This document shows positions 1 to 35,019 of a stretch of 64,000 bases of DNA, piece after piece. The notes under the pieces are model-generated. The model saw only the letters and a list, made by a program, of their open reading frames with translations, had not been told where the DNA came from and searched no databases. Within the stretch, counting starts at the first letter, position 1. Every line of letters starts with the position of its first letter. A program made the translations under genes and the position numbers. The stretch is from Candidatus Nomurabacteria bacterium (lineage in GTDB: Bacteria; Patescibacteriota; Minisyncoccia; Phycocordibacterales; UBA918), in the NCBI GenBank assembly GCA_020632075.1, contig JACKGH010000001.1, forward strand, positions 537,778 through 601,777, given 5' to 3'.

Positions 1-239
1 CCCATGACCGATAGTCGGTTCACTCAAAAAGAAGCCTACAAATAAGAGTGAAACGACTGTAACGCTTGCGAGCACCGCGTACGTAGCAGATCGACTGAGA
101 TGTGTGAAATTAGTAATCATAATGCAATTTGTGTCTTGTTAATTTACTTAGTAAGTATAGCAATTAATGGCTCAGAATAATGTTTTATGGTTGTTTTTGT
201 GTGCATAACTCACACCTTATTTCACCGCTTTACATAAGC

Positions 240-6000: not shown

Positions 6001-9000
6001 ATTATCATAACCAGCAGTAGAGACGTCCCATGGTGTACTGAGTGTATAAGAATAGATCGTGTTGTTGGTGCCACCGACTACATACATCTTGGTGCCACCT
6101 GAAGAAAAACTCACTCCCTGTGGCCCAGTGTCTTGAGAACTTACACTGGTCGCGTGGGTATAGGCTGCAGTAGAGACATCCCACGCGGTTGAGAGTGTGT
6201 ATTCATAGACACTATTGTTGTCATTTCCGGCTACAAACATTGTAGAACCATCACTCGAGAACGCTACACCCATTGGAGTACCGTCTTGGGACTGCACACT
6301 GGTCGCGTGAGTGTAGGCTGCAGTAGAGACATCCCACGCGGTTGAGAGCGCGTATTCATAGACCTTATCTGTAGTAACTCCTGTGATGTACATATTCGTG
6401 CCGTCAGTTGAGAACGCAAGACCTCGCTGGGCAGAATCCTCATCAGTAGACGATGAGTTTGTATAAGAAGCAGTGGTCAGGTCAAAACCAATACCAGCCG
6501 CGTACAGTGTGCCTCCGTCCGCATCGAAGGTTCCATTCTGTGTCAGATCACCAGTGACCGTGAGAGAATTTGATACCGAAAGGACTGTCCCCTCTGTAAC
6601 GTCTACTTCTGAGGTAGAGGCATTGGCTGGAAATTCTATAGTCTGAACACCGGCCGTCACAAGCTTACCAAGTGATGAAGCACCGGTAAGCGTACCAGTG
6701 AAGGCAGAGCTGGTACTGAAGTCATACTCGTAGACTCGGCCACCCACCTGCGTCGACACGATATACATCTTGTCGAGATCGGCTGAAAAGTTTATGTCAC
6801 GCGGCTCAGTAACCACCGTCCCAACACTGAAAGTGTCAGCAAGCACAGCGGTCGAGACATCCCACGCGGTTGAGAGTGTATATTCGTAGACACTATCATT
6901 CTCATAACCTGACACAAACATCTTGTAGCCATCTCTCGCAAACACAAGACCATGCGGAAATTCGTCTTGTGTCTCAACCAGCTTACTGTCAATAAAGCTA
7001 GCAGTTGAAACATCCCATGGGGTCGAGAGTGTGTACTCATTAACATCATCCCCCCAGTCACCGATCACGAACATCTTGGATCCGTCCGTTGAGAATTGCA
7101 CACTATGCCCATCGCTCTCCTGTGCAGCAACACTGGTCGCGTGCACATAACTAGCAGTCGAGACGTCCCAGGCGGAAGACAAATTGTACTCATGCACTGA
7201 GTCATTCTGTGTACCATTGATGTACATCTTGGTGCCGTCTGGTTTGAAAAAGAGACCAGTTGGCGTATTTTCATACGCCTGCACACTGGTAGCATGAACA
7301 TAGCTGGCTGTTGAAGCGTCCCAAGCAGGTGATAGCGTGTACTGAACCACCTGATCGTTTGTTGAACCAACCACATACATCTTGGTGCCATCAGTCGAAA
7401 AAGCGACCTCTCGTGGACTTGATTCTTGTGTTGTGACTGTCTTGTAGTCCACATAGGCTGCATGCATCAACCCCGCGGTCGTCGTACCACCGTTGTGCGT
7501 AAACACACCGCTATTATTATGAAAATCACCCGTGAGATTCAAATATGCTGGACTTAAGAATGTGTCTCCGCTCCAGATATGTAGTTCCTGTGCTTCCAAG
7601 ATCTTTATCTCGTCGGTCGCAACTGACGCAGTGAATTGTAGATCACTATCATCGGTTGAGTCGTAGTTTGCAAACTCGGTCACACTGGTTGAAGTGCTCC
7701 CCTCTTGGCGCACGATGACTCGATCCTGGTATAGATCGAGGCCTGAAATATGACTCGAAGTCGACGTGGCTTTGGTTACCACCGCCGCTCGAATACTCGA
7801 AGACGCATCAACAAAGACCGTCAACGGCACATCCATACCAAGCAGATATTGATCAACTGCAAAGCTGTACACCCCAGAACCATTAGCAGTCGTGGTAGTA
7901 GCCACTGGTGATCCAGCCCCAACCACTAACTTAATGGTCGCGCCAGTACCAATAACTGTTGACCCTTCATCAGAATACAAAGTCCCCGAAACGGTAGTGG
8001 TAGCATTCTCTTCATACAAACTATCAAGCCTAAGTCCTGAAAACGCTCCATGATCGACATCCATGGTACCAGTGGTAGCCAAGGCAATGTTTTCAACGGA
8101 CACATTGTCGGTTGCACTCATACCTGGCACAAACGCACCATGAGCATGACCCGCATTGTAACTCCATGTATCATTGCGGTTGAATTCATCAGAGCCGGCG
8201 TAATCAATGATCGTGTCATTGACACTAAGTCGAGCAGTCGGATTACCACGTGACACAGCTGCAGCTTCAGATTGCTGTGACCAGAAAAAGATGTAGTCTC
8301 CCGCTACGTCGACTTCTGTAAACGAGTCGGTGGCACTATTGATAGTGAAGGTCGATGCGTCTTCATGAGCTGTGGTGTCCCAAGAAAATTCAGTCAACGT
8401 AGTTGTGTTTTGATCGCCTGAAGTCGCCTCACGAATGAACGTCTCCGCAGCGCTTGGTAATTGAACGATCTCTAACGACCCGCCCTGGAATGTAGCCGTC
8501 AAACCAGCACGCTGAAGGTTCTCAATAGCGAGCACTTCCCCTGCACCAACATCGATGATACCGATGTAGTTAAGAACACCATCTTCAGCCTCTTGTGCAG
8601 TTCGCATCATCGTGGACACTCGCGTCCCCTCTACTTCCACATCATCCAAAGTGATCCGAGAAGTGTACTCCGTTCGATCTGCAGTAGTTCCAGCACCATC
8701 AGCAAACATTGGTAATGAATAGGAAACGAGATACCTGCCAGCATTTGCAATGGTAATATTTGCACCACTTCTTGAGAATCCTGTATCCTCTTCGTTGGTC
8801 GTATCCCACGCCACATCAGCGTGTGTGGTGGAAGCAGAGTTCGCACTCACAGCACCCGAGAGAGCGTACCGTGCGTAGTTCCAAGCATCAGGAAGCTTAA
8901 TGACCTGTACACCATTCCAGCCGGCATTCTCTCGGGTTGGAATACCTGTACTATCGTTGTCTGTTTTGTAGAAGTTCGTTTCAAGTGAGGTGGTCGCACT

Positions 9001-9435
9001 TGCAACATTAATGATCGCGTTACCCGATGTCATACACTCCTGCTGCCCGTTCAGCTTTCTCATATAACATTGTGAGGCACCAGAGGTAGCTGTCACTCCC
9101 CCAATATCGAGCCGACCTTGAATTTCCTTTCTGGTGTTGTCAGTAGCATCAGTTGTTTCCCAGAGCTGCGTATACAACACCAAGTACTTTCCCGTTTCTA
9201 GTTCGAACTTACTTCCACTGTACGTGATCGCTGTTCCCGAAGCATGTGTCTCACTGTTCCAGCCAAAGATCGCTTCACTGGTCGATACTGCGGTGGTATC
9301 GGTAGTGTTTTCACGCACCATGTACTCGAGCATGGTGGCGTGCACTTGAGCCGGGACCGCAAGCACAGCAAACACAAAGAACACTATGAACAGTGACTGA
9401 ATTACTTTTACTTGTGTGATCAATGCGGTCTTCAT
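2941..9435 (-). CDS. Giant secreted repeat protein (2164-aa ORF, N-terminal part of a ~3064-aa protein); signal peptide plus tandem YVTN/NHL-like beta-propeller blade repeats and right-handed-helix-like T/S/G-rich spacer repeats
   Basis: N-terminal MKTALITQVKVIQSLFIVFFVFAVLAVPAQVHA is signal-peptide-like. More than 20 copies of ~50-aa units (FDISTASYLHATSVAAQD.TPVGV..N.TGTKMYVVGSSNDKVYEYDLSSA). The stop lies immediately after a G8 tract. Confidence 0.65.
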   Translation of the reverse strand: MKTALITQVKVIQSLFIVFFVFAVLAVPAQVHATMLEYMVRENTTDTTAVSTSEAIFGWNSETHASGTAITYSGSKFELETGKYLVLYTQLWETTDATDNTRKEIQGRLDIGGVTATSGASQCYMRKLNGQQECMTSGNAIINVASATTSLETNFYKTDNDSTGIPTRENAGWNGVQVIKLPDAWNYARYALSGAVSANSASTTHADVAWDTTNEEDTGFSRSGANITIANAGRYLVSYSLPMFADGAGTTADRTEYTSRITLDDVEVEGTRVSTMMRTAQEAEDGVLNYIGIIDVGAGEVLAIENLQRAGLTATFQGGSLEIVQLPSAAETFIREATSGDQNTTTLTEFSWDTTAHEDASTFTINSATDSFTEVDVAGDYIFFWSQQSEAAAVSRGNPTARLSVNDTIIDYAGSDEFNRNDTWSYNAGHAHGAFVPGMSATDNVSVENIALATTGTMDVDHGAFSGLRLDSLYEENATTTVSGTLYSDEGSTVIGTGATIKLVVGAGSPVATTTTANGSGVYSFAVDQYLLGMDVPLTVFVDASSSIRAAVVTKATSTSSHISGLDLYQDRVIVRQEGSTSTSVTEFANYDSTDDSDLQFTASVATDEIKILEAQELHIWSGDTFLSPAYLNLTGDFHNNSGVFTHNGGTTTAGLMHAAYVDYKTVTTQESSPREVAFSTDGTKMYVVGSTNDQVVQYTLSPAWDASTASYVHATSVQAYENTPTGLFFKPDGTKMYINGTQNDSVHEYNLSSAWDVSTASYVHATSVAAQESDGHSVQFSTDGSKMFVIGDWGDDVNEYTLSTPWDVSTASFIDSKLVETQDEFPHGLVFARDGYKMFVSGYENDSVYEYTLSTAWDVSTAVLADTFSVGTVVTEPRDINFSADLDKMYIVSTQVGGRVYEYDFSTSSAFTGTLTGASSLGKLVTAGVQTIEFPANASTSEVDVTEGTVLSVSNSLTVTGDLTQNGTFDADGGTLYAAGIGFDLTTASYTNSSSTDEDSAQRGLAFSTDGTNMYITGVTTDKVYEYALSTAWDVSTAAYTHATSVQSQDGTPMGVAFSSDGSTMFVAGNDNNSVYEYTLSTAWDVSTAAYTHATSVSSQDTGPQGVSFSSGGTKMYVVGGTNNTIYSYTLSTPWDVSTAGYDNASLYMGNFDTNPNAAVVSTSGRYLYVAGFDSEQVFVYYLSTLYDISSATYLQTFTPTVSLNAFRDIAFSTSGDEFYTLDFNGVDQYSLRDVQTISGTLIATSSLGDVVISGEQSTYFADNASTTDFTISSGAATVTAPVVLTVAGNFTNSGGDFDHNYGVVELTGTSKTLSGTLTGGSALGSVEVFGSYTASNNASTSHLTIASGGSFVAPSLLTITGEYTNNGTFTNNSGTVYLNGYGNQRFSSYRSIGLSSQTEDTTLKGLTFSPDGLKMFTTGSTNDKVYEYTLGTAWVVATKTYVDGLSVATQTDDPIDVQFSDDGRTMYVLGGSSNSKPEAVNEYSLSTAYDVSTASYTDNFTVTTQDATPTGFRLSRNGTKLFILGDDGDDVNEYLLGTAWDVSTATYVDNYSVATEVTSTDGLFFSVNGDYMYVRGDVGEIHQYTLQVPFDVSTANYQEQVLYSSAFAGYGAWLTYDSSILFTNYSAFDRILTIELNAVHQGTMTGSSVFGSVVFDQTKQTFDVANASTSDLTITASAIVIAPTSTLSVAGDYINEGDFTVSADSVTDIAGAYTNSGTYTAAASSSLRVGGDFSNSGTYTGAGGSNLRVAGNYNNTGTKGIDVTSVFTGSGKTISGTLTSSSRFDEVVITGSYSLLDNATTSDLTITSGGALTATDALTITGSYSNAGTFSHNAGVVIVENNGFDISIASYLHATSVAAQDISPYDVAFNTTGTKMYVVGSSNDKVYEYDLSSAFDISTASYLHATSVAAQDGTPVGVTINTTGTKMYMVGDSNNKVYEYDLSSAFDISTASYLHATSVAAQDSTPVGVTINTTGTKMYVVGSSNDKVYEYDLSSAFDISTASYLHATSVAAQDTVPRDLAFNTTGTRMYVIGSSNNKVYEYDLSSAFDISTAAFVSSKDISTEDLFGYGLAFNTTGTKMYMTGSVNDSIYEYVITEEEQTFSGTMTGGSAFNDLVTAGTLPLTFSDNASTTDFTIGSGTATVTAPTLLTVAGDLTNSGGGF
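2948..2955 (-). repeat. Homopolymeric G8 (C8 on + strand) tract at the junction of the two giant-protein ORFs
   Basis: Sequence tcaaaatCCCCCCCCactattag. Frame 1 stops 2 codons after it; frame 2 continues the same repeat motif. Confidence 0.9.
3150..3910 (-). repeat. Near-identical tandem 150-bp (50-aa) coding repeats inside the giant protein gene
   Basis: The string ggaagcagttgaaatatcgaacgcagaggagaggtcgtactcgtagactttgt recurs at ~3421, 3571 and 3721, with diverged copies at ~3270 and ~3870. They encode FDISTASYLHATSVAAQD...KVYEYDLSSA units. Confidence 0.8.
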
Positions 9436-9437: not shown

Positions 9438-12400
9438 CTACGTTGTTGGTTCTGGAGCTGAATCTACTGGACTTGCCGGTTCCTCAGCTGGTGGTTCCGG
9501 GGTTGGTTCTGGGTCTTCGGCCGGCAATTCAGACTCTTCACTCTCCTCTTCTACTATTGGCTCGACCGGCGGCTCTTCTGGCATTTCTTCGATCGTCGGT
9601 TCAGTCGTAGGTTCTTCTACTGTCTCCGGGGAACTCGTTGCAGCGTCTTGTTCTTCTGTAGTATCTGGAACGGTTTCGTTTGTACTACTTGCGGTTTGAT
9701 CAGTCGAACTGGCGGTGTCATCAGGCTCAGTACCAGCATTTCCCCCCTGAGTCTGTCCACCCGAGGTGTTGCTGTCAGTATTGGTGCTGCCACCAGCTGA
9801 GCCAGTGTTGTTAGTGCTGCTTGTATCAGTTGTTGCAGCCTGCACATCGAGCAAGAGGCGGAGATCATCCGCAGTCACACACACACCGTCGACACAGAGT
9901 TCATTAGCGATCTCAACGCGATCTGCCTTAAGCGTGAAGACTGAGAGCACGCCATCCACGAAGCGATTTGCGAGAGCAACCAAACGGTCGAAGATAGTTT
10001 CATCCTCATTATCACCGACCACTTCAATGCTGCTAGTGCCCATAAGCGCCTGGATACCAGCAAGCTGAGCATCATCAACCCAACGGAAACCACGATCGAC
10101 AAACATTACGATCTGACCAACCTTCACCTCAGTATTTCGATCAAGATCGATCGTTTCACTTTCAGTCTCGCGAAGTGCTTGGAGTGCTTCAGCGACAGAT
10201 TCACGCTCAATGATGTCATTAGCTTCTTCGATGCGTCCTTCTGTCGTGGTGGCGTTTAGTGGTACACACGGGTCCTCACCAAGCGCTGAGCCACCACCGA
10301 AGTAACAACCATCATCAATACGTGGATCGTATTCAGTGAAGATAGGCTCGAACACTGGATCGATCATGTCATCGCCAAACTGATTGATGTATGTCTCACT
10401 GTACATACGCTCATCATCGAAGTCTTCAAGTGCGATACCGATAGTCGCTCCAGTGCCAGTTGCCTTCATTGCAATACCTGGCAGGCTTGAGAGCATAAGC
10501 TGATCACCCTTCTTGATCGGTCCGTTTTCAGTCGAAAGCTTTACTGGCACACGTCCAGTAAGCGCAACTGGATACCGCGTCTCTCCTTCAGTGAGTGACA
10601 CATCGTCGGCACCGAGGGTGATACCCGGCTTAGTAGAAACCACACCGAGGATCGGTAGAACGCTATCTCGATTGGCTCGTTCGATCGAGAGTTCACCAGC
10701 GAGCGTTACCACCTCACCCGTCTCGAGCGCAGCGCTTGAGAAGTATGTTTCTGCCAAGTCAGAGTTGCCGGTATCGTAATCACGTGCTGAGATCTTACCG
10801 CTTGTAGATGCAGTACACTCACCATCGTAATCGACACAGATACCACCAAATGGGATCTGGAGACCAGCCAAGTTTGCAGTCGAGCCATCGTTACGACCGA
10901 TCGTCGTGGTACCGAATGCAGACACCGTGAATACAGGGTTGTTTGCGTTTCGGAAATCAAGATACTTTGAGGTCGACGATGAGAATGAGCCACCCGTACC
11001 ATTACCGAAGTTCATCTCAAGACCAGTACCTTCGAAATCACTCGAGCTCTGGAAGAGACTCAAAAGCGTAGCGGTCGTGATCGTGTCTGAGTAGCCGCGA
11101 ATCGCGTTACCTTGAGTAGTACCTTCTGTTTCGAAGTACCCACCCGCTGGCTCGTAGGTTGCTCCCGCATCGCCAGTTGTTACACCGCGTACACCAAAGG
11201 TACGAGCGAAGCCTGAAAGTGCGGTGTTTTCACCGTACGTATTGATACCGCGGTGTGCCTGCACTTCAAGACCACGCACAGTATTTGCGTAGTCTGTACT
11301 ATCTTGTACCCGGATCATACTACCAACGAGTGTGGTGGTCGCGGTATTTGAAGCTGTAAGGTAAAAGCGGTTACCATACTGCACCGCATCTTCAACAGAG
11401 TTAGTAGTCTGCAAGTACTGATCGAATCCGATCACTCCTGCACCATCAAAGTCGGTGCTTTCAAGAGTAAGCTTCGCGCTTGGAGTGGTGCTACCAATAC
11501 TGACCGAAGTACTGCCAATACCTCCCTGACCATCAGCGCGACCAAAGACAGTAAGAAGTGGCGTACCGTCAAGACTTGCCGAGTAGCTCATGACCGTACC
11601 GGTTGCAGACGCAGTCGTGACTCCCATGTCAGTCCACGAGACGATTCCCGCATCATCCGCAAACGTCATGTTACCCAGTGCGAGATTCTCAATCGTGGTC
11701 TGGTTGGTCGCACTATCATATGAGATCGCACCATTAGCGACTTCGAAGTCACCGGTGAGAGCGATCTTTGGATAGGTACCATCAGTATCGATACGGAAGA
11801 TCGGTGAGGCTGATGATGAGGTAGCGATGGTGAACGCAAACGCAGTACTGTCTTTAATAGTACTGGTAGCGTTGGTGAAGTACTGGAGAAGAAGGTCACT
11901 CGCTGAAGAAGAAGCGAATGAGATCACGTTTGAATCAAGCCAGGTGTCACCAGCGACTGAGAGTTTAGCGCTTGGGGATGAGGTACCGATGCCAACGAAT
12001 CCACTATTGTCGACCGTGAGTACTCGCCCACTCGCGTTATCGAGCGTGAGGATGTCACCAGTACCGAGCTGAGTGATCGAGGTGCTCGTAGCAGAGGTTG
12101 AGCCGGTGATGCTGAAGAGGTTGTATGCACGTTCGTCGTCGGTGGTGATGGTAGTGCGGTCCCATTCGTTGTAGCGGGTGTCGGTACCTGCATCACTGAC
12201 GTAGGTGGTGGTGTCGGGGTTGATGTAGGTATTGCCCACAATGACGGTGTGTTCGGAGTTTACCGTCTCGATCTCGATCAATGCAGCGGTACCGGTGGCC
12301 CTAATACTGTTACCAGAAATGAGAACGTCATCTGGCGCAACACCGCCAATATCATCAAGAAAGATGCTGGCATTTCCGCCACCACCATTCGCAATAAGGA

Positions 12401-15400
12401 CATTACCAGACACAAGAGTACGATCACTCGACCAAGAAACCCGAATACCATACACACTATTGGTGGCGATTTGGTTACCAATAATACTGTTGTCTGTTGC
12501 CCCCTGCCCCGTCACGATACCTTCAGGGTTCCCGGCAACGGTGTTGTCTGAAATAATGTTTCGACTCGCGTTTAGACCAATTTCAATACCGTAACTACCA
12601 TTACCATAAACCTGGTTGTTGGAGACGTGGTTTTCGACACTTGCTGTTCCCAAATACAAACCATGCCCGCTACCACTATTCATCTGGTTGCTGGTAATAA
12701 TGTTGTTGTTTGAGTTTGAGTTAACAAGAACGTTGTAACTACTATTACTATTGACTTGATTGCCCACAACCATGTTGTCCGAACTCTCGTCTAAGTAAAC
12801 ACCGTACACACTATCCTCAACCAAGTTCCCTTGCACAACGTTTTCATTTGAGCTAGTGAGCAACCCGATACCAATCCCAGCCGCGTCATCACTATTAATG
12901 AAACTGTTCGCAACAGTGTTGTTTGAACTTGAGACGAGATAAATACCCAAGTTTTCATTACCACCGGCAGTGACCTGCTCCACAGTATTACCGTTGGCAT
13001 ACGACAAGTACACACCAGCATTTTGAAAATCATTTGCGATGACATGCGCAATCGAAGACGAGCTGGTATTACTAAACCAGATACCATACTGATCATCACT
13101 GGCGGTGTTATTACTTAGATTACCTTCAAGGTGCAGACCAGCCACGCGCACGTGATTGCTCGACGTTGCCAGAATCATAGCGACCGTGTTGGCGGTATTC
13201 GCATCAAGTGTGAGAACTGTGCTGCTTCCCTGTCCAATCAGACTGGTAGAGGAAGCCAAGGTGATCACGCTGGTGGCGTAGGTGGTCGTACCGACCGCGT
13301 AATTTCCCGCGAGCAGCCGGACTTCGCCGCCGCCGTTACCAGCAACGTAATCAATCGCTGCCTGAATGGTCGCTTCATCAGCGGTCCCATCCGCCGTATA
13401 GTCTGCATACGCTTTCTCATTCGCTGGACTGTCTGCAGCAGCGACGACTACGGCGGTGTCACCGGCTGATTTGATACATGAGCCAGAAGCATCTTGGAAA
13501 CAACCACCCTCAAGCTTGATGCCGTTGGCGAAGGTTGAGGTGGCAGTGGTGGTTGAGACATAAAGGATGTTCTCGATGGTGGTGGTTGCACTGGTGAGGG
13601 TGAGGAGACCGTTGGTGCCCACTGTAGAACCAGTACCGATCTTGAAGGTGTCGTCGGTGTCGTCGAGGCCGAGGTAGAAGTCGACTGCAGAACCATCAAA
13701 CAGTGCAGCCAGATCTTCAGCCAGACCTGTTCCAAATGTAATAGTAGAACCAGTCCCTCCGGTTGAACTGATACTCAAGTCTCCACTCGCATTCACACTA
13801 AGCTCACTGTAATTAGACCCATCATACGAAAGTCGCAGTGCGTTTGAGGTACCAAAGATATCAAGCATTGCTCCTGGTGAAGCTGTACCAAGTCCAAGGT
13901 TGGTTCCGTCATACACAAAGGTTGAATCAAAGGCCAGGGCTGAACCAGAGACGTATGGGATAGCGTTGGTGGTATATGAACCTGGAGTATCAGAAAGACC
14001 AAGGAAGGTACCATTACCTAAGCCAAGGCTTGAGGTAGCAATGTCTGCCCAGGCTGAACCATTCCAATATAAGAGGTCACCGTAGTTTTCGGTCATTGCG
14101 GCGACATCAGAGAGGTCTTCGAGGGCGGAGGCGCCGGCTGAGAAACCAAGGGTGGTGGTTGAGACCCAGTCGAAGCCACCAGCTGCGGTGCTTGAAGCTT
14201 GAAGGACATAGCCATTGACCCAGTTGGAAGCAGCCAGGCTTGAAGAAGCAACGGTGGTAGTTGAGAGGACTCCGTTAGCATCGGCGGTGAGGAGGCCGCT
14301 GGTGAGACCACTCACAGTGAGAGTGCCGTCGTTACCAACCGTGAAAACGCGACCAGTCGCGTTGTCTAGAGTAAGGATGTCACCAGTACCGAGCTGAGTG
14401 ATCGAGGTACTCGTAGCTGAGGTTGAGCCGGTGATGCTGAAGAGGTCGTGTGTGCGGGTGGTTGGCGTTGTGAGTGTGCGGCGATCAAACTGATCGAACA
14501 TCGTTCCGGTACCTAAGTCACGGACAGACAGTGCTCCAGTGCCTGAGTGTGTATTATTTGCAATAACGTTATCGTTTGCGGTCGAAGATTGGATATCAAT
14601 CGCTCGTCCAGTCCCGGCCGCACTCACGATCCGGTTACCGGTGATGAGGTTTCGATCAGAGTTACTGCTGACGATAACTCCCGTTCCGGTCGCACCTCCA
14701 TTATTGTTGTTTATGAAATTGTTACCGCTCACTAAGTTATCAGAACTATTCTCAACGAACACACCTACTGTTGTGTTGTTTTGGAAGGTGTTTCCGGTGA
14801 CGGTGTTGTTACTTGATCCGTTTTCAAAATAAATTCCTCGGTTACTGCTCTCAAAGACGTTACCGGTGACTAGGTTGTAATCACCATTGTAGAAAAGAAC
14901 ACCTTGGTTACCCATGTCACGAAAGATGTTGCCAGTAACAGTGTTGTATCCACCAAGATAAAATGTGATTCCCTCCCAAGAGTTATCATGAATAGTATTA
15001 TTTGCAAAAATGGTGTGATAGACCGTATCAGCATCAATACCGTAGTTGCTGAATCCGGAAATCATGTTGTTCGTAATCTGGTTTCCTCGGGTACTAGTAT
15101 AGAGGCGGATACCGGAACCTCGTCCATCTTTAATCGATAGACCAGTGATCGTCGAACTTGCTGTGCCAGCAAAGTGAATACCGTGCTGGGTACCAGTAGT
15201 CTGCCCGGTTTTATTCAAGTCGAGCGTCATATCACGCACTGTGATATCTGTCACACCAGTTGCGTAGAACATGTAGTAGGTCGCATTGAAACTGTTCCTG
15301 AGCTGCAAAACAGTGCTCTTGCCAGAACCAACCAATGCTACTGAGGATGTTGCAAAATTAATACCACGATTCGAAAAACTGGTTGTACCAAGAGTGAATG

Positions 15401-16769
15401 TACCCGGAAGGAGGTGCACCATACCCCCACTCGCCGACAACGAATCAAGAGCCTGTTGGATCTCAACTTCGTCATCAGTACCGTCTGCAACATAATCTGC
15501 GTGTGCCTTCTGACTCGCTGGAGAATCGCTTGCCGCAACTACCACCATGGTGTCACCATTCCAAGATGAAGTGCCTGTCGTAACCCAACTTGAACCATTC
15601 CAATAGAGAACGTCGTTGGTGGCAATGCTGGTAGTAGAGACATCTGAGAGCTGACCAAGCTGCAGTGCATTTTGTGCAAAGTAGTATGCACTCGAAGTAC
15701 TGAAGCCACCACTCAGGAACGCTGCTGCTTCGTAGCCATCAAGGGTACCGGTCCAGTCTCCGGTCTTGGTGAGATACGAATCACCAATAGCCGCACCGTT
15801 CCAAGTCGCATCATAGATCGTACCGTCCACCTCAAGATCACCACTGATGAATGCACTGTTGTATCGATTACCAGACGCAATGCTACTGATGGTTGACGAG
15901 CCTACAGTAAGAAGTGTCGTTGGTGAAGTAGTGCCGATACCAACGTACCCACCGCTTGCAATAGTCATTCGAGATGCGTTATTGGTGATAAGACGAAGGT
16001 CATGAGCTGAGACAGTTCCCATGAAGCCTTGGAAGTCTTCACTACGAACATCTACGGTCACACTGTTAGTTTCATCGATGAAGCGACCACCTGCATTTGT
16101 CGTGCTAGACACGGTAAGTAATCTAACTGACGTCGCACCAAGTCCAACGTAGCCATTATCCGTAACAGTGAACACTTCTGTACCACCATCAAGTAAGTTC
16201 AGAATGTCACCAGTACCTGACTGGTTAATGGTCAAAAGTGTGTTTGTGTCAGTAGCAGCGATCGTATCTGATTGGTCGGAACGTACAAAACTAGACGACG
16301 CAACACCACCAAGCTTGTATGACTCAAACGCTGCTGGCACAGTGCCGAGCGGCTTGCGAGGACTCATTTCCCCATCCCAACTTGGTGAACCGCCAGTACC
16401 ACCGATCTCAACACCGAGGTAGAGATCTTGGTTGAAGTCAACACTAGTAAGTGGTGAAGTACTGCCGAGCATTACACTGAAGAGACCGTTGGTAACCTGT
16501 ACACCTTCACTAGAACCAACAAGTCGTTCCTCGGTCCACACTGCTGACGTGGTAGCCTGACTGGTATTCTGCAACAACCAAAAACGCATGTTGTATGTAC
16601 CGTCTGACACCGTCGCGCCAGTAGCATCGGTAAGCTTTCCTTGGTAGTTGATGTTCGGATTTGGTTCAGCGTGTACCGTAGACGTCCAACCTAAAAGACT
16701 GACACCAAAGGAGAGGAGTAGCAAGAAAGCAAGTTTAGTTGTAATGTTTCGCGCCGCCATACTTACCAT
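9438..16769 (-). CDS. Giant secreted protein (2443 aa) with two tandem modules each containing a right-handed parallel beta-helix (pectate-lyase/tailspike-like, PbH1-type NxxGN repeats); C-terminal acidic Pro/Glu/Thr-rich tail
   Basis: Signal peptide MVSMAARNITTKLAFLLLLSFGVSLLGWTSTVHA. Repeats such as NNTVTGNTFQNNTTVGVFVENSSDNLVSGNNFINN and NNTVANSFINSDDAAGIGIG... Duplicated flanks: LYWNGS.W before and LFSITGSTSATSTSITQLGTGDILTLDNA after each helix domain. C-terminus EPTIEEMPEEPPVEPIVEEESEESELPAEDPEPTPEPP. The stop is 2 nt from the start of the next giant gene. Confidence 0.65.
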   Translation of the reverse strand: MVSMAARNITTKLAFLLLLSFGVSLLGWTSTVHAEPNPNINYQGKLTDATGATVSDGTYNMRFWLLQNTSQATTSAVWTEERLVGSSEGVQVTNGLFSVMLGSTSPLTSVDFNQDLYLGVEIGGTGGSPSWDGEMSPRKPLGTVPAAFESYKLGGVASSSFVRSDQSDTIAATDTNTLLTINQSGTGDILNLLDGGTEVFTVTDNGYVGLGATSVRLLTVSSTTNAGGRFIDETNSVTVDVRSEDFQGFMGTVSAHDLRLITNNASRMTIASGGYVGIGTTSPTTLLTVGSSTISSIASGNRYNSAFISGDLEVDGTIYDATWNGAAIGDSYLTKTGDWTGTLDGYEAAAFLSGGFSTSSAYYFAQNALQLGQLSDVSTTSIATNDVLYWNGSSWVTTGTSSWNGDTMVVVAASDSPASQKAHADYVADGTDDEVEIQQALDSLSASGGMVHLLPGTFTLGTTSFSNRGINFATSSVALVGSGKSTVLQLRNSFNATYYMFYATGVTDITVRDMTLDLNKTGQTTGTQHGIHFAGTASSTITGLSIKDGRGSGIRLYTSTRGNQITNNMISGFSNYGIDADTVYHTIFANNTIHDNSWEGITFYLGGYNTVTGNIFRDMGNQGVLFYNGDYNLVTGNVFESSNRGIYFENGSSNNTVTGNTFQNNTTVGVFVENSSDNLVSGNNFINNNNGGATGTGVIVSSNSDRNLITGNRIVSAAGTGRAIDIQSSTANDNVIANNTHSGTGALSVRDLGTGTMFDQFDRRTLTTPTTRTHDLFSITGSTSATSTSITQLGTGDILTLDNATGRVFTVGNDGTLTVSGLTSGLLTADANGVLSTTTVASSSLAASNWVNGYVLQASSTAAGGFDWVSTTTLGFSAGASALEDLSDVAAMTENYGDLLYWNGSAWADIATSSLGLGNGTFLGLSDTPGSYTTNAIPYVSGSALAFDSTFVYDGTNLGLGTASPGAMLDIFGTSNALRLSYDGSNYSELSVNASGDLSISSTGGTGSTITFGTGLAEDLAALFDGSAVDFYLGLDDTDDTFKIGTGSTVGTNGLLTLTSATTTIENILYVSTTTATSTFANGIKLEGGCFQDASGSCIKSAGDTAVVVAAADSPANEKAYADYTADGTADEATIQAAIDYVAGNGGGEVRLLAGNYAVGTTTYATSVITLASSTSLIGQGSSTVLTLDANTANTVAMILATSSNHVRVAGLHLEGNLSNNTASDDQYGIWFSNTSSSSIAHVIANDFQNAGVYLSYANGNTVEQVTAGGNENLGIYLVSSSNNTVANSFINSDDAAGIGIGLLTSSNENVVQGNLVEDSVYGVYLDESSDNMVVGNQVNSNSSYNVLVNSNSNNNIITSNQMNSGSGHGLYLGTASVENHVSNNQVYGNGSYGIEIGLNASRNIISDNTVAGNPEGIVTGQGATDNSIIGNQIATNSVYGIRVSWSSDRTLVSGNVLIANGGGGNASIFLDDIGGVAPDDVLISGNSIRATGTAALIEIETVNSEHTVIVGNTYINPDTTTYVSDAGTDTRYNEWDRTTITTDDERAYNLFSITGSTSATSTSITQLGTGDILTLDNASGRVLTVDNSGFVGIGTSSPSAKLSVAGDTWLDSNVISFASSSASDLLLQYFTNATSTIKDSTAFAFTIATSSSASPIFRIDTDGTYPKIALTGDFEVANGAISYDSATNQTTIENLALGNMTFADDAGIVSWTDMGVTTASATGTVMSYSASLDGTPLLTVFGRADGQGGIGSTSVSIGSTTPSAKLTLESTDFDGAGVIGFDQYLQTTNSVEDAVQYGNRFYLTASNTATTTLVGSMIRVQDSTDYANTVRGLEVQAHRGINTYGENTALSGFARTFGVRGVTTGDAGATYEPAGGYFETEGTTQGNAIRGYSDTITTATLLSLFQSSSDFEGTGLEMNFGNGTGGSFSSSTSKYLDFRNANNPVFTVSAFGTTTIGRNDGSTANLAGLQIPFGGICVDYDGECTASTSGKISARDYDTGNSDLAETYFSSAALETGEVVTLAGELSIERANRDSVLPILGVVSTKPGITLGADDVSLTEGETRYPVALTGRVPVKLSTENGPIKKGDQLMLSSLPGIAMKATGTGATIGIALEDFDDERMYSETYINQFGDDMIDPVFEPIFTEYDPRIDDGCYFGGGSALGEDPCVPLNATTTEGRIEEANDIIERESVAEALQALRETESETIDLDRNTEVKVGQIVMFVDRGFRWVDDAQLAGIQALMGTSSIEVVGDNEDETIFDRLVALANRFVDGVLSVFTLKADRVEIANELCVDGVCVTADDLRLLLDVQAATTDTSSTNNTGSAGGSTNTDSNTSGGQTQGGNAGTEPDDTASSTDQTASSTNETVPDTTEEQDAATSSPETVEEPTTEPTIEEMPEEPPVEPIVEEESEESELPAEDPEPTPEPPAEEPASPVDSAPEPTT

Positions 16770-17506
16770 TTACGAACATTAACCGGCACTTCTATCAACG
16801 GTACTAACGCACCAACCACTCGACCTGACTCGTCGACCTTTGCTGCTACCTGCGTACCATCGCTCAGCTCGTAGATCTCTACCGTATCTGAAAACAACAT
16901 ATCGACGGTCGCAGAGGCACTACTGGTTCCTTGTGGCATGAGTAAAATACCGTGCGTTGGGTCAGCCGAAAACGAATGCACTGAAGAGGTAGGCACTGCA
17001 ACCACGACAGCTCCCATATCGCTCACTGGACCGTTTGACTGATCAGACACAGTGGTGCGCACAGGTTGTGGAGCCTGAGCAACTTGCGTACTTACTACCG
17101 GAGTCTTGATCAGCCGTGAACTGAGCATGTCATGCTCGTAGACAACGTATCCGCTGAAGAGTCCGACGAGCAAAACGAATGTCGCCACTGAGAGTGAACG
17201 AGCATGCAGTGACTGCACTCGCTTGAGCTGTAGAGTATTCTGCTGTTCCGCTACTGCTCGAAGCTCTCGCTCCCGTTTGCGTTCAAGACGAAGTTGCTTC
17301 TTGCGAATTTCTTGTTCGGCATTAATTGTATCGACATACGACTTGAGAGAGTTTAGATCAACGTACCACTGTCGGCCCACATAAGTGGCAACAATTTTTT
17401 GCTCGCGTGCAAGGCGAGTGATGTAGTCTCGTGAGTATGTGACAAGGTCTGCAATATCCTTGATTGGATACAACTGCTTTCCGTCAATTTCTAATGCACT
17501 GGACAT
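16763..17506 (-). CDS. Membrane-anchored HTH protein: N-terminal excisionase/MerR-type helix-turn-helix, coiled-coil, single TM helix, ~120-aa extracytoplasmic C-terminal domain (ToxR-like topology)
   Basis: IKDIADLVTYSRDYITRLAREQKIVATYVGRQWYV matches the HTH_17 pattern (..GR.W.V). Charged heptad region RKKQLRLERKRERELRAVAEQQ. TM helix SVATFVLLVGLFSGYVVY. Overlaps the start of the giant gene by 7 nt. Confidence 0.55.
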   Translation of the reverse strand: MSSALEIDGKQLYPIKDIADLVTYSRDYITRLAREQKIVATYVGRQWYVDLNSLKSYVDTINAEQEIRKKQLRLERKRERELRAVAEQQNTLQLKRVQSLHARSLSVATFVLLVGLFSGYVVYEHDMLSSRLIKTPVVSTQVAQAPQPVRTTVSDQSNGPVSDMGAVVVAVPTSSVHSFSADPTHGILLMPQGTSSASATVDMLFSDTVEIYELSDGTQVAAKVDESGRVVGALVPLIEVPVNVRKW

Positions 17507-17548
17507 ACCGATTTAACTTTAATTATAAAGTTAAATCGGTATTTTTTC
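17507..17548. promoter_or_regulatory. 14-bp-stem palindrome + T-tract between the two HTH paralogs, 4 nt upstream of the downstream paralog's start codon (candidate operator/attenuator)
   Basis: ccgatttaactttaAttaTaaagttaaatcgg followed by tattttttt. Confidence 0.35.
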
Positions 17549-17585
17549 TGAACTGACTGTGAATAAGTTTTATGTAAAAAATGTA

Positions 17586-18638
17586 CTACGGTTGCAAGAC
17601 TTGCAGGAGATTTGCAACCTGCAACACAACCTGAGATTCATACACTGTGTCAGCGACGATCACTTGTGAACTCGCTGAGAACAAAACGGTAACACACACC
17701 AAAGCGAGCACTGAGGCGATCAGAGGAGAGATCAATACCATAAGCGGCATTTCCTTCATGGCAGCGGCTTGCTGAACCATTTGTGGTGCAAAAGATGAAA
17801 TAGTCGATTGTAGACCTGCTTTCGCTCGAGATTTCTTATCTGGCTGTAGTGGAGATTCTATCCTTTTCGCTGAAATAGTTGCTTTTTCAATCTTTTTTTC
17901 AAAATCTGTACTCAAAACTGTTTTCTTGTCAGCAAAATCAGCGACGATGTTTACTTTTTGCTTTCGTTTTCCAGCAATCTCAACAACCGTGACTCTTTTT
18001 ACCTTTGGCTTTACGAGTGCAACTTCATCCGAGATAACCTTATTATTAAGCACATTTTCTTCATCACTAAGACTCTCCTCTTCATTCTCATCGACGTCAG
18101 GGTAGTCTGTAACTGTAAGAGAACCCGACAGAGACACTTCAGGCAATGGATCAGCTGCAAACACTGAGGTTGTTTTCTCAGCTGCGATATGAATTCGAGT
18201 TGCATTAGCATGCTCAATGCGAATTCTTCTAGGTGGTTTGGGGACTTTTCTCGTGAGACTAGGAAGCAATGCTTCTTCATCTGGCTCATAGGCTACAGCC
18301 AACGAACGTTCTCGCTGTCCCATTTTGTTTACAGTCGTCTTAGATACTTTAACCGTTTTTGGAGTAAGAACAGCCGGGACACTTTTCCGATGTATCTTTG
18401 TTTTACTAGCTATATCTTGTTTTTGCTCTTCTCGATCCTTTTTCACTAATTGTGAATGTCTGTTTCTTTTGTGTTCAACTAGCGATTCTGGATTTACAAA
18501 CCACGTCCGCCCAACTAAACGAGCGTCAATCTTTTTCGCACGGCAGAGCTGGCCAATGTAGTCTGAAGTATACTTAAATTCCTTCGCAGCATGCGAAGCT
18601 TTAATGTAGGCAACTCCATCAAAAACTACAGTCTCCAT
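17586..18638 (-). CDS. Paralogous HTH protein: excisionase/MerR-type HTH N-terminus, long Lys/Glu-rich linker, C-terminal TM anchor (tail-anchored)
   Basis: KYTSDYIGQLCRAKKIDARLVGRTWFVNPESL aligns with the N-terminus of the downstream paralog. C-terminal hydrophobic segment MVLISPLIASVLALVCVTVLF. Confidence 0.55.
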   Translation of the reverse strand: METVVFDGVAYIKASHAAKEFKYTSDYIGQLCRAKKIDARLVGRTWFVNPESLVEHKRNRHSQLVKKDREEQKQDIASKTKIHRKSVPAVLTPKTVKVSKTTVNKMGQRERSLAVAYEPDEEALLPSLTRKVPKPPRRIRIEHANATRIHIAAEKTTSVFAADPLPEVSLSGSLTVTDYPDVDENEEESLSDEENVLNNKVISDEVALVKPKVKRVTVVEIAGKRKQKVNIVADFADKKTVLSTDFEKKIEKATISAKRIESPLQPDKKSRAKAGLQSTISSFAPQMVQQAAAMKEMPLMVLISPLIASVLALVCVTVLFSASSQVIVADTVYESQVVLQVANLLQVLQP

Positions 18639-18667
18639 AACAAGTACATTCTAACAGAGAAAAGCAA

Positions 18668-18692
18668 AATGCACCCCCAGAAGAAGTGCATT
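18668..18692 (-). terminator. Hairpin (7-bp stem aatgcac/gtgcatt) with T-rich tail on the minus strand, downstream of gatB
   Basis: The minus strand reads gtgcatt...aatgcac TTTGCTTTTCTCTGTT. Confidence 0.4.
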
Positions 18693-18716: not shown

Positions 18717-20126
18717 TTATTTTAATTCTTGAATTAAAAGCTCTCTCAAGACTGCTGGATTTGCAGACCCCTTTGTCTTCTTCATACCTTGACCCAACAA
18801 GAATTGCAAAGCAGCATCCTTACCATTTCGGTACTCTTCCACAACAGACTCATTCTCAGTGACGATCTCCTTAACAAGAGCCCTCAAAGAACTCTCATCT
18901 GATACCTGCAGCAGACCTTTTCCTTCTGCGATCTCAAGAGGAGACTTGTCTGATCCAAATAATTCAGGGAGCATATCCTTTGCTACCCTCGACCCGATCT
19001 TACCCTCAGAGAGCATCTGCATCAAAGCAACGAAATGTTCAACATCGAGGTCAGACAAGCGATACTCCTCCTCACTGAGCAGTGCAGTAACGTCAGAGGT
19101 CAGATAGTTACCTGAAAGCTTCAATATCTCTGCGGACAATCTGGTTGACGAAACAATATCTGCAAAATACGGATCGAGGACTGGATTTGATATCAGAAGC
19201 TCAATCGTATCACTCGCCAATCCGAGATTTTTATAATCTGTCCTTTTTTCTAAAGGTAATTTAGGAATTATCTCGGATAAACGAGTTTCACTAAATGACT
19301 CATTTCTAGAGACATCAATCTTTGGAATATCTGGATCTGGGAAGTATCTATAGTCTTTAGCTGTTTCCTTGGAGCGCTGCGAAAATGTGCGAGTCTTCTG
19401 TTCATCCCAGCCGCGAGTTTCTTGAACTACCTGCCCACCATTTTCAAGAAGTTCTATCTGTCGTTTGATCTCAAACTCGATGGCACCCTCTACAGACTTA
19501 AATGAGTTGAGATTTTTCACTTCAACTTTTGTCCCAAACTCATCAGTCTTACTAACAGAGATATTTGCTTCGACACGCATTTCACCGCGCTCCATATTTG
19601 CATCAGATATACCGAGTGTCCGTAGTAGAAGTTGTAACTCTCGCGCAAAATTTCCAGCTGTCTCAGCATCATGGATGACCGGCTCTGTTACCAACTCCAT
19701 AAGTGGAACTCCTGAGCGATTGAAGTCAACAACACTCCCCTCTCCCTTGTCGTGTTGACTGCGTGCAGTATCTTCTTCAAGATGGACGCGAGTCAGTGTG
19801 ACACCAGACAGCTCGCCTCCGGAAAGAAACGGAAAGGCGTACTGACTGATCTGGTAGGCTTTTGGAATGTCTGGATAGAAATAATTTTTTCTATCGAACT
19901 CTGAGTAAGTGGCAGCTGTTGCACGGACTGCCTGACCAAACATGAGCACTTTCTTGATAGCCTCCTCATTTGGAGTTGGCAATGTGCCTGGGTGAGCAAG
20001 ACAAACTGGACATATATGTGTATTCGGATCAGAACCATGTGGCTCGTTTTTACAACCACAAAACATTTTGCTTGCTGTCTTTAGTTCAGCGTGAACTTCA
20101 AGACCAATCGTCGGGGTGTAGGACAT
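18717..20126 (-). CDS. gatB: Asp-tRNA(Asn)/Glu-tRNA(Gln) amidotransferase subunit B
   Basis: N-terminus MSYTPTIGLEVHAELKTASKMFCGCKNE...HICPVCLAHPGTLP matches the GatB signature; length 469 aa. Confidence 0.9.
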   Translation of the reverse strand: MSYTPTIGLEVHAELKTASKMFCGCKNEPHGSDPNTHICPVCLAHPGTLPTPNEEAIKKVLMFGQAVRATAATYSEFDRKNYFYPDIPKAYQISQYAFPFLSGGELSGVTLTRVHLEEDTARSQHDKGEGSVVDFNRSGVPLMELVTEPVIHDAETAGNFARELQLLLRTLGISDANMERGEMRVEANISVSKTDEFGTKVEVKNLNSFKSVEGAIEFEIKRQIELLENGGQVVQETRGWDEQKTRTFSQRSKETAKDYRYFPDPDIPKIDVSRNESFSETRLSEIIPKLPLEKRTDYKNLGLASDTIELLISNPVLDPYFADIVSSTRLSAEILKLSGNYLTSDVTALLSEEEYRLSDLDVEHFVALMQMLSEGKIGSRVAKDMLPELFGSDKSPLEIAEGKGLLQVSDESSLRALVKEIVTENESVVEEYRNGKDAALQFLLGQGMKKTKGSANPAVLRELLIQELK

Positions 20127-24844: not shown

Positions 24845-24851
24845 ACTTTCA

Positions 24852-33043: not shown

Positions 33044-33059
33044 GTGCTGACAGCTCAAC

Positions 33060-35013: not shown

Positions 35014-35019
35014 ACCTTA

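What the first reader, a model, noticed from the sequence alone, without database searches (positions are those of the whole stretch)
16763..18638. Tandem pair of membrane-anchored excisionase/MerR-type HTH proteins translationally coupled to the giant surface-protein genes: candidate ToxR-like membrane-tethered regulator module
Both proteins begin with a ~55-aa HTH_17/excisionase-like DNA-binding domain (…Y(S/T)(R/S)DYI..L.R..KI.A..VGR.W(Y/F)V…). Each also carries a single TM helix. The 247-aa protein has coiled-coil + TM + ~120-aa extracytoplasmic domain (ToxR/CadC-like topology). The 350-aa protein has a long Lys/Glu-rich linker and a C-terminal TM tail-anchor. They are clear paralogs (tandem duplication). 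The downstream one overlaps the start of the 2443-aa giant gene by 7 nt, so all four genes (18638 down to 240, ~18.4 kb) look like one transcription unit. A DNA-binding domain of the phage-excisionase type tethered to the membrane and fused to an extracellular sensor, placed directly in front of >5500 aa of surface adhesin, is an unusual architecture. It could be a one-component envelope-sensing switch that controls, or physically couples DNA to, the surface appendage. I do not recognise this arrangement as a described system.
Basis: inference. Interest (0 to 1): 0.7.

Follow-up and report, generated by a model that had tools for sequence, protein, structure and literature searches.

The report
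Membrane-anchored HTH pair heading giant-fibre locus
Two conserved, uncharacterised membrane proteins of ultra-small Paceibacteria (CPR) bacteria have a phage-excisionase-type DNA-binding head inside the cell, and in sister lineages the same head and membrane anchor form the first part of the giant surface fibre itself, so they probably join the fibre to nucleic acid in the cytoplasm.

Summary
ORFs 17586-18638 (B, 350 aa) and 16763-17506 (A, 247 aa) are real genes. Each has an N-terminal Xis/MerR/TerS-type winged HTH and one TM helix, and they sit directly upstream of giant secreted proteins in a Candidatus Nomurabacteria genome.

- **Ancient families:** A and B share only the HTH (31 aa, 52% identity). 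They are not a recent duplication.
- **Synteny:** gatB-B-A is adjacent in all 46 loci that retain an identifiable A-type gene, out of 49 species-level genomes. A giant ORF usually starts within 10 nt of A's stop.
- **Fusion:** in 7 sister genomes the A-type HTH, basic helix and TM form the N-terminus of the giant protein. Those fusions lack both A's beta ectodomain and the N-domain shared by the separate giants.
- **Best reading:** A is the membrane base of the fibre, with a nucleic-acid-binding head inside the cell. B is probably its tail-anchored partner.
- **Not shown:** a ToxR-like regulatory role remains possible. ToxR homology is excluded.
- **The palindrome:** it behaves like a sense-strand RNA hairpin (G.U 44, A.C 7) with a -10-like TATAAT in its loop, not like a simple operator.

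I found no description of this arrangement in the literature.

The parts
17586..18638 (-). Gene B (350 aa). N-terminal winged HTH (residues 1-60, nt 18459-18638), then a disordered basic linker of about 240 aa with conserved short motifs (YEPD..LLP, LPEVSLSGKL, NK.ISD), a conserved TM helix (residues ~299-321, nt 17676-17744) and a 28-aa external tail.
16763..17506 (-). Gene A (247 aa). Winged HTH (residues 1-50, nt ~17357-17506), then one continuous helix 51-130 made of a conserved basic segment (RK.QLS.ERKRER) and a TM helix (residues 104-124, nt 17135-17197, with a GxxxG motif). A disordered spacer follows, then a small conserved beta ectodomain (residues 186-241, nt 16784-16951).
17505..17542 (-). 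Perfect 17-bp-stem hairpin or palindrome with loop UAAU. Its 3' end overlaps the AU of A's AUG. A -10-like TATAAT (17522-17527) lies at the apex. The element is conserved with covariation in 34 distinct loci.
17558..17566 (-). TTATTCACA, a match to the DnaA-box consensus TTATNCACA. It lies about 30 nt upstream of the TATAAT and is conserved at this position in relatives.
18648..18656 (-). Extended -10 element TGTTAGAAT, 9 nt before B's ATG. It is conserved in 32 of 46 distinct loci and implies a leaderless or nearly leaderless B mRNA.
18668..18692 (-). Intrinsic-terminator-like hairpin plus T-run after gatB. It separates gatB from B.
9438..16769 (-). Giant gene 1 (2443 aa; the likely start is 16762). 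It has a cleavable-type signal peptide, an N-domain of about 190 aa conserved in about 40 related loci, then NosD / parallel beta-helix repeats and an acidic tail.
2941..9435 (-). Giant gene 2 (2164 aa). It has a signal peptide and beta-propeller-type repeats, and it starts 2 nt after giant 1's stop.
240..3053 (-). Giant ORF 3 (937 aa). It overlaps giant 2 by 112 nt and continues giant 2's repeat motif in another frame.
1..120 (-). Start of the first gene of a conserved four-gene cluster of secreted proteins. It runs off the window. In relatives the second gene of this cluster matches WxLIP_PGBD.

Best explanation
A and B are two ancient, distinct families of single-pass membrane proteins found in one clade of Paceibacteria (CPR). 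Each has a cytoplasmic N-terminal winged HTH of the excisionase/MerR/small-terminase type. They head a cell-surface gene cluster laid out as B, A, 0-3 giant secreted fibre proteins, then four smaller secreted proteins.

Proposed roles:
- A is the membrane base of the giant fibre. Its HTH and basic helix lie in the cytoplasm, its GxxxG helix crosses the membrane, and its small external beta domain holds the conserved N-domain of the secreted giant without a covalent bond.
- In sister lineages the same link is covalent: HTH, basic helix and TM are the N-terminus of the giant.
- B is tail-anchored and has an even more conserved HTH. It is probably A's partner in the membrane.
- The cytoplasmic heads most likely bind nucleic acid at the membrane. 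That could be the nucleoid or the cluster's own control region or mRNA. Binding would tie the appendage to DNA or RNA and may feed back on the A-giant operon.

Shown: the genes, fold, topology, synteny, fusions and complementary domain distribution. Inferred: the ectodomain/N-domain contact, the A-B partnership, nucleic-acid binding and any feedback.
For: 1. The fold is Xis/BldC/TraN/Par/TerS-like and all these matches bind DNA. Weak excisionase matches come from Pfam, NCBIfam and PHROGs.
2. gatB-B-A is adjacent in the 6 metagenomic contexts I looked up and, among the 49 species-level genome loci, in the 46 that retain an identifiable A-type gene. Of the other three, L030 is a 639-nt contig that ends upstream of B, L052 holds only a truncated B and an A-type HTH remnant, and L053's A-type module is part of the giant ORF.
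3. A giant ORF, or an ORF running off the contig, starts within about 10 nt of A's stop in most loci.
4. In L045, L047, L049, L050, L053, L054 and L055 the A-type HTH, basic helix and one TM form the N-terminus of an ORF of 569 to over 2399 aa. L053 has a second such giant on the other strand.
5. The domain distribution is complementary. A profile of A's ectodomain detects it in all but one (L051) of the complete stand-alone A proteins and in none of the 7 fusions. The roughly 190-aa N-domain of the giants is found in about 40 split loci and in no fusion.
6. The TM sequences are conserved beyond what hydrophobicity alone requires (G115 and G119 in A; S304, P305, A308, L313 and F320 in B).
7. 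B-like proteins in three genomes carry two tandem HTH domains, as the DNA-binding protein TraN does.
8. Giants in relatives carry Peptidase_S74 and beta-helix domains, as tailspike-like fibres do.
Against: - No binding of DNA, RNA or protein has been tested.
- The HTH scores below curated cut-offs in the window's own proteins, and the HTH profile finds no solved relative by sequence.
- Four genomes (L007, L019, L022, L027) keep A, ectodomain included, with no giant gene next to it. In four others (L041, L043, L046, L048) the giant lies after the four-gene cluster. A's role therefore cannot depend on an adjacent giant.
- L051's stand-alone A-like protein shows no ectodomain hit although the next ORF has the giants' N-domain.
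- The whole neighbourhood (Wzy-murB-secA-obg-gatB) is collinear in these genomes, so adjacency alone carries little weight.
- The ectodomain/N-domain contact rests on phyletic pattern only.
Confidence: 0.5

Rival explanations
1. A and/or B are ToxR-like membrane-tethered transcription factors. The external part senses an envelope or host-contact signal, and the HTH dimer binds promoter DNA (the palindrome or the TTATNCACA motif) to switch the giant and surface genes on or off. They play no structural part in the fibre.
For: - The topology is ToxR/CadC-like.
- The fold is shared with DNA-binding proteins.
- A conserved palindrome centred on a -10-like TATAAT sits at A's start in almost all loci, including upstream of several of the fused genes (L047, L053, L054, L055).
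- A's promoter lacks the extended -10 TG that B's has, and it has a conserved upstream 9-mer, as an activator-dependent promoter would.
- The same 9-mer precedes the four-gene surface cluster.
Against: - Palindrome mismatches are G.U (44) and not A.C (7). The consensus itself is G.U at one pair. This fits RNA pairing rather than a symmetric operator.
- The arms covary while the recognition helix (SRDY[IV]TRLARE) is nearly invariant.
- No second copy of the palindrome exists in the window.
- A sensor fused to a fibre of about 2000 aa that ends in a Peptidase_S74 domain is hard to reconcile with a dimeric operator protein. That S74-type fibres are trimeric is my own knowledge.
- No OmpR-type domain is present.
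Confidence: 0.25
2. A and B are RodZ-like scaffold proteins. The HTH is used for protein-protein contact, for example with a cytoskeletal, divisome or Sec component, and not for nucleic acid. The pair is a housekeeping envelope-organising module that merely lies next to variable surface genes.
For: - The topology is that of RodZ: cytoplasmic HTH, basic juxtamembrane segment, TM and external domain.
- The position is fixed among housekeeping genes (murB, secA, obg, gatB) in every locus that retains both genes.
- A is retained where no giant is adjacent.
- B's long disordered linker carries conserved short linear motifs typical of protein docking.
- A's HTH domain has no net positive charge.
Against: - Eight independent fusions of the module to giant proteins argue for a direct link to the fibres.
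- The tandem double HTH in some B-like proteins resembles DNA binders such as TraN.
- Arg and Lys of the recognition helix and the wing (R31, R34, K37, R45 in A) are conserved.
- No XRE-type HTH or DUF4115 is detected.
Confidence: 0.15
3. The genes are a relic of a mobile element: an excisionase-like gene pair from a prophage or integrative element that also brought in tail-fibre-like giant genes.
For: - Weak excisionase matches in Pfam, NCBIfam and PHROGs.
- Giants in relatives carry the phage-type domains Peptidase_S74 and Peptidase_G2.
Against: - The chromosomal position is the same in every genome that retains them, between housekeeping genes, with no integrase, att repeats or tRNA nearby.
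- Both proteins are membrane-anchored and much longer than excisionases.
- Each family is conserved over its full length at 30-48% identity.
- There is no GC shift at the pair.
Confidence: 0.03

Closest known systems
ToxR / CadC / TcpP membrane-tethered one-component regulators
   Same: N-in single-pass topology, with a cytoplasmic DNA-binding-type domain, one TM helix and an extracytoplasmic domain. Tight coupling to a downstream partner gene, as in toxRS.
   Different: - The DNA-binding domain is of the excisionase/MerR/TerS type, not the OmpR/PhoB winged helix.
- There is no sequence or domain homology.
- The external partner is a giant fibre, and in some lineages the module is fused to it.
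- No regulatory activity has been shown.
RodZ
   Same: Cytoplasmic HTH, basic juxtamembrane segment, single TM and external domain. Core gene in a fixed housekeeping neighbourhood. Shows that such an HTH can act in protein-protein contact.
   Different: RodZ has an XRE-type HTH and a DUF4115 periplasmic domain, and neither is detected here. No link to MreB is known for A or B. RodZ is never fused to giant surface proteins.
RacA and pSK1 Par (MerR-like winged HTH followed by a coiled coil that tethers DNA to a cell structure)
   Same: An N-terminal MerR/Xis-like HTH is followed directly by a long helix. The pSK1 Par DNA-binding domain is among the structural matches. The concept is the same: DNA tethered to a fixed cellular site.
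   Different: RacA and Par are soluble and reach the membrane or pole through partner proteins, whereas A and B are integral membrane proteins. The comparison with RacA rests on my own knowledge, because RacA did not appear in the searches.
TraN of the pIP501 type IV secretion system, and phage excisionases (Pukovnik Xis, Tn916 Xis) and BldC
   Same: The fold of the HTH domain. TraN has two tandem copies, as do the B-like proteins of L045, L053 and L054.
   Different: Those are small soluble proteins with no TM helix, no coiled-coil-to-TM continuation and no surface-protein partner.
RsgI anti-sigma factors controlling cellulosome scaffoldin genes (functional analogy only; from my own knowledge)
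   Same: A single-pass membrane protein with an external domain, linked to the expression of very large surface proteins.
   Different: RsgI works through a sigma factor and not through its own HTH. It is unrelated in sequence and fold.

Membership tests
HTH_17 / excisionase-family DNA-binding domain (PF12728, TIGR01764) | Sequence match at or above the curated cut-off | tested here: inconclusive
   Window proteins score below the cut-offs: A 19.6 bits and B 14.7 bits against 27 for PF12728, and A 17.8 against 28.8 for TIGR01764. Many family members carry a precomputed PF12728 hit, and the fused relative in L054 scores 34.4 bits.
HTH_17 / excisionase-family DNA-binding domain (PF12728, TIGR01764) | Winged-helix fold of the Xis/MerR N-domain type | tested here: met
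HTH_17 / excisionase-family DNA-binding domain (PF12728, TIGR01764) | Binds DNA | not testable with these tools
   Only indirect evidence: conserved Arg/Lys on the recognition helix and wing and tandem HTH domains in some B-like proteins.
ToxR/CadC-type membrane-bound regulators | N-terminal cytoplasmic DNA-binding domain, single TM helix, periplasmic C-terminal domain | tested here: met
   A has its HTH at 1-50, its TM at 104-124 with the positive charge on the N-terminal side, and an external domain at 186-241. B has only a 28-aa external tail.
ToxR/CadC-type membrane-bound regulators | OmpR/PhoB-type winged-helix domain (Trans_reg_C) | tested here: not met
   No Trans_reg_C hit at E <= 0.1. 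The fold matches Xis/MerR/TerS instead.
ToxR/CadC-type membrane-bound regulators | Sequence-specific promoter binding and transcriptional control | not testable with these tools
   Candidate sites exist: the palindrome at 17505-17542 and TTATTCACA at 17558-17566. The palindrome's substitution pattern, however, points to RNA pairing.
MerR-family regulators | MerR-type HTH plus a C-terminal effector domain, with an operator dyad inside a 19-20 bp -35/-10 spacer | tested here: not met
RodZ | XRE-type HTH and a DUF4115 periplasmic domain | tested here: not met
   Neither domain is detected. Only the topology is shared.
WxL / Csc-type cell-surface complex cluster (for the downstream four-gene cluster) | WxL-interacting protein with a DUF916 (WxLIP_PGBD) domain, together with WxL-domain proteins | tested here: inconclusive
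   WxLIP_PGBD is found in three orthologues of the second gene (E 1.8e-6 at 28.4 bits, above the 27.3 cut-off; E 4e-4; E 1e-3). No WxL domain is detected in the neighbouring genes.

The most novel reading that the evidence does not exclude
Giant fibres on the surface of these ultra-small, probably host-dependent bacteria are wired through a single membrane helix to a cytoplasmic DNA- or RNA-binding head. The link is either one polypeptide or the A-giant joint. This would be a direct trans-envelope connection between the appendage and nucleic acid. It could make gene expression depend on contact or load at the fibre, or it could pin the nucleoid or the operon's own mRNA to the site of fibre assembly. 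No appendage-to-nucleic-acid coupler of this kind has been described.
Probability: 0.3. Interest if true: 0.85.

Novelty: new variant of a known kind. Interest (0 to 1): 0.62.

Why it matters
Paceibacteria and other CPR bacteria are abundant and mostly uncultivated, and they are thought to live attached to hosts. How their large surface proteins are anchored and controlled is unknown. This work defines two conserved protein families (at least 285 clusters of A at 50% identity) with a clear domain plan, a Rosetta-stone fusion to giant fibres, and conserved cis elements.

The resulting hypotheses can be tested with purified domains and complex prediction, without cultivating the organism: what the HTH binds, whether A's ectodomain holds the giants' N-domain, and what the hairpin does. 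If the heads bind nucleic acid, this would be a new way of linking a surface appendage to the genome or to its own expression.

Tried and rejected
- **Palindrome as a plain DNA operator for the HTH proteins.** Weakened, not excluded. The substitution pattern is G.U 44 against A.C 7, the arms covary against an invariant recognition helix, and there is no second copy in the window.
- **Palindrome as a terminator for antisense transcription.** The scan flagged it on the plus strand with a T-run. The flanking run is A in some loci and T in others, and the G.U pairs would be A.C on that strand.
- **Palindrome as a canonical terminator of B.** No U-tract follows it, whereas the gatB and murB terminators of the same genome have one.
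- **Recent tandem duplication of A and B.** Rejected.
- **Mobile-element or defence origin.** Only weak excisionase and 'mad1' matches, and the core position is fixed.
- **Known RNA family for the hairpin.** No Rfam match at E <= 1.
- **Sequence search of an HTH profile against PDB.** Nothing meaningful.
- **Third homologue search, seeded with the fused N-termini.** It returned mainly proteins of about 220-340 aa (plus a few short fragments) and not even its own seeds, because of the candidate cap. It says nothing about how common the fusions are.
- **AlphaFold-database fold search.** The library was unavailable.
- **Reading TNCACA as a -35 hexamer.** No -10 lies 17 nt downstream. The spacing to TATAAT is 30 nt.
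- **Literature searches.** No description of the arrangement was found.


Full report
**What is there**

The window comes from a Candidatus Nomurabacteria (Paceibacteria, CPR) genome. Both proteins are identical to NCBI entries H6786_02645 and H6786_02650, which are annotated as hypothetical. The gene order on the minus strand is:
- gatB (18717-20126)
- B (17586-18638, 350 aa)
- A (16763-17506, 247 aa)
- giant 1 (9438-16769, 2443 aa, NosD / parallel beta-helix repeats)
- giant 2 (2941-9435, 2164 aa)
- a third large ORF (240-3053)
- the start of a further secreted-protein gene at 120

These assignments rest. Upstream lie obg, a holin-like gene, secA, a small Lys/Ala-rich protein gene, murB and a Wzy/TPR protein. 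The rest of the window is mostly glycan synthesis.

**The two proteins**

Sequence models see the HTH only weakly: HTH_17 at 19.6 and 14.7 bits against a cut-off of 27, TIGR01764 at 17.8 against 28.8, and PHROG excisionase families at E around 1e-3. The structure models are clear.

A (mean pLDDT 82) has:
- a beta-beta-helix-helix-beta-beta unit at residues 5-50;
- one unbroken helix at 51-130, made of a conserved basic stretch and the TM segment 104-124;
- about 55 disordered residues;
- a small beta domain at 186-241.

B has:
- the same head (pLDDT above 90);
- about 240 disordered residues with a few invariant short motifs;
- a TM helix at 299-321;
- a short structured tail.

A and B resemble each other only over 31 residues of the head (52% identity). 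Each belongs to its own full-length family, with 127 and 222 hits at about 30-48% identity. An exhaustive profile search with the A family found 285 clusters at E < 1e-30 and 1819 at E < 1e-10. The pair is therefore old and is not a recent tandem duplicate.

**Context in relatives**

Six contexts recovered from homologues of A, at 34-45% identity, all show the order Wzy/TPR, murB, secA, (holin) obg, gatB, B, A and then a giant ORF of 1026-2983 aa. The holin is missing only in L003. In L003 the giant had simply not been called as a gene.

A scan of one genome per species gave 49 loci. gatB, B and an A-type gene are adjacent in 46 of them. The three exceptions are:
- L030, a 639-nt contig that ends upstream of B;
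- L052, which holds only a truncated B and an A-type HTH remnant;
- L053, where the A-type module is part of the giant ORF.

In most loci a giant ORF, or an ORF cut by the contig end, begins within about 10 nt of A's stop. The giants vary in content (NosD/beta-helix, Peptidase_S74, Peptidase_G2). They share an N-domain of about 190 aa directly after the signal peptide.

There are exceptions to the A-giant adjacency. Four genomes (L007, L019, L022, L027) have no giant at this position. In four others (L041, L043, L046, L048) it lies after a conserved cluster of four secreted proteins of about 235, 350, 255 and 530 aa. The second of these four matches the WxL-interacting-protein domain in three orthologues, once above the curated cut-off, and the fourth has fn3 domains. 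The window's own copy of this cluster begins at position 120. Because the whole neighbourhood is collinear, adjacency by itself is weak evidence of a shared function.

**The fusion**

The strongest evidence is different. In seven of the more distant genomes (L045, L047, L049, L050, L053, L054, L055) the A-type head, the conserved basic helix and a single TM segment form the N-terminus of the giant ORF itself. These ORFs range from 569 to more than 2399 aa, and two are complete at 1990 and 1923 aa. L053 has a second giant of the same kind on the other strand. One fused giant ends with a Peptidase_S74 domain.

A profile of A's ectodomain detects it in all but one (L051) of the complete stand-alone A proteins and in none of the seven fusions. 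Conversely, the giants' shared N-domain occurs in about 40 split loci and in none of the fusions. Two solutions thus replace each other: a covalent head-TM-fibre protein, or A plus a secreted giant.

I infer from this pattern that A's ectodomain holds the giants' N-domain. This has not been shown. The TM helices of both proteins are conserved in sequence (GxxxG in A; S, P, A, L and F positions in B). That suggests specific contacts within the membrane, possibly between A and B. In three genomes the B-like protein has two heads in tandem.

**The cis elements**

B follows a terminator-like hairpin after gatB (18668-18692). It also follows an extended -10 element (TGTTAGAAT, 18648-18656) that ends 9 nt before the ATG. 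A TGnTAnAAT-like element 6-14 nt before the start (6-11 nt in most) is present in 32 of 46 distinct loci, which implies a leaderless or nearly leaderless mRNA.

The 79-nt B-A spacer holds two conserved elements:
- **A 9-mer, TTATTCACA (17558-17566).** It matches the DnaA-box consensus TTATNCACA. That this is the DnaA-box consensus is my own knowledge. It lies about 30 nt upstream of a TATAAT. The window has only three perfect copies, a number no greater than chance (mean 2.8 in shuffles). All three, however, are intergenic and in the coding orientation: before A, before the four-gene cluster and before the small Lys/Ala-rich gene. The same holds in 17 related loci.
It folds as a 17-bp stem with a UAAU loop (17505-17542; -21.4 kcal/mol, z -6.7). 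Its 3' end overlaps the first two bases of A's AUG, and the TATAAT sits at its apex.

The palindrome is present in nearly all loci. In distant lineages, including upstream of several fused giants (L047, L053, L054, L055), it appears in variant form, again with a TAnAAT in most loops. Across 34 distinct sequences, 90.7% of cells pair, against 83.6% in shuffles and 24-49% when one arm is slid. Seven of 13 pairs change on both sides.

The departures from Watson-Crick pairing are 44 G.U against 7 A.C. At one pair the commonest state is G.U itself. That asymmetry is what a sense-strand RNA helix would give. It is not expected for a symmetric protein-binding site or a cruciform. The arms also covary while the recognition helix of A is almost invariant.

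The element has no second copy in the window and no Rfam match. I cannot reconcile all its features. A promoter in the loop and a hairpin that needs the left arm cannot act on the same transcript. One consistent but untested reading is that the hairpin masks A's start codon on read-through transcripts from B, while the loop promoter produces a short-leader A-giant mRNA. Binding of the hairpin or the duplex by the HTH heads remains possible.

**Weighing the explanations**

I put 0.5 on the anchor model. In it A is the membrane base of the fibre, B is its probable partner, and the heads bind nucleic acid at the membrane, perhaps with feedback on the operon. The support is the fusions, the complementary domain pattern, the tight A-giant junction, the conserved TM sequences and the DNA-binder fold.

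A purely regulatory ToxR-like role gets 0.25. The topology and the conserved promoter-centred dyad fit it. The RNA-type substitution pattern, and fusion to a fibre with a Peptidase_S74 end, do not. That S74-type fibres are trimeric is my own knowledge.

A RodZ-like scaffold role with no nucleic-acid binding gets 0.15. It fits the housekeeping position, the persistence of A without an adjacent giant, and B's docking-type motifs. A mobile-element relic is very unlikely (0.03).

**Membership and novelty**

On membership:
- The heads belong structurally to the excisionase/MerR/TerS winged-helix group. By sequence this holds only at the family level.
- The proteins are not members of the ToxR/CadC, MerR or RodZ families, because defining domains were tested and not found.

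On novelty, membrane-tethered HTH proteins are a known kind. An excisionase-type head serving as the cytoplasmic end of giant surface fibres, whether split or fused, together with a conserved tail-anchored paralogue and these cis elements, is not described in the literature I could search. I rate it a new variant of a known kind, with interest 0.62.

Noticed in passing
window 200-208, 17558-17566, 24792-24800 (all minus strand); L001-L054 intergenic sites: A perfect DnaA-box-consensus 9-mer (TTATNCACA) occurs only in intergenic DNA and in the coding orientation. It lies upstream of three transcription units: the small Lys/Ala-rich gene, gene A, and the first gene of the four-gene surface cluster. 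The same placement recurs in 17 related loci. The factor that binds it is unknown.
   Followed up: partly
window 24424-24648 (minus strand): A 74-aa protein made almost entirely of KKAxKK repeats, resembling histone H1 or Hc1. It lies between murB and secA, after a strong terminator (24796-24850) and a TTATCCACA motif. A small ORF sits at the same position in relatives.
   Followed up: no
window 2941-3053: Giant ORF 2 and ORF 3 overlap by 112 nt. ORF 3's first residues (LLIVGGDFDNNSG) continue the repeat motif at the end of ORF 2 (LLTVAGDLTNSGG). This is probably one gene of about 3100 aa split by a frameshift, which may be real or a sequencing error.
   Followed up: partly
window 1-120 (minus strand); L007 9083-13365, L019 10072-14191, L043 10920-14937: A conserved cluster of four secreted proteins follows the giants, or follows A directly where there is no giant. 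The second protein matches the WxL-interacting-protein peptidoglycan-binding domain, and the fourth has fn3 domains. This may be a counterpart of the Csc/WxL surface clusters of Firmicutes.
   Followed up: partly
L045 8678-9673, L053 7837-8772, L054 8620-9618: The B-like proteins of the lineage with fused giants carry two tandem HTH domains before the linker and the C-terminal TM helix.
   Followed up: partly
window 18648-18656 and the equivalent sites in 46 loci: B is preceded by an extended -10 element only 6-14 nt (6-11 nt in most) before the start codon in 32 of 46 distinct loci, with no Shine-Dalgarno sequence. This suggests leaderless mRNAs in this clade.
   Followed up: partly
window 49224-49266 and 49305-49344: Two perfect GC-rich inverted repeats, with 20-nt and 19-nt arms, lie 40 nt apart inside a glycosyltransferase ORF (48449-49564).
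   Followed up: no
window about 32000-44000: A low-GC stretch (0.38-0.42, against about 0.49 elsewhere) holds glycan-synthesis genes: FkbM-type and other methyltransferases, a flippase-like gene and glycosyltransferases. Two of the genes are on the opposite strand. It may be a horizontally acquired or variable glycan island.
   Followed up: no
window 58138-60513 (minus strand): A 791-aa protein with a weak match to a type IV secretion coupling-protein domain (TrwB_AAD_bind, E 8e-7), next to PKD/lamin-tail and peptidoglycan-enzyme genes.
   Followed up: no
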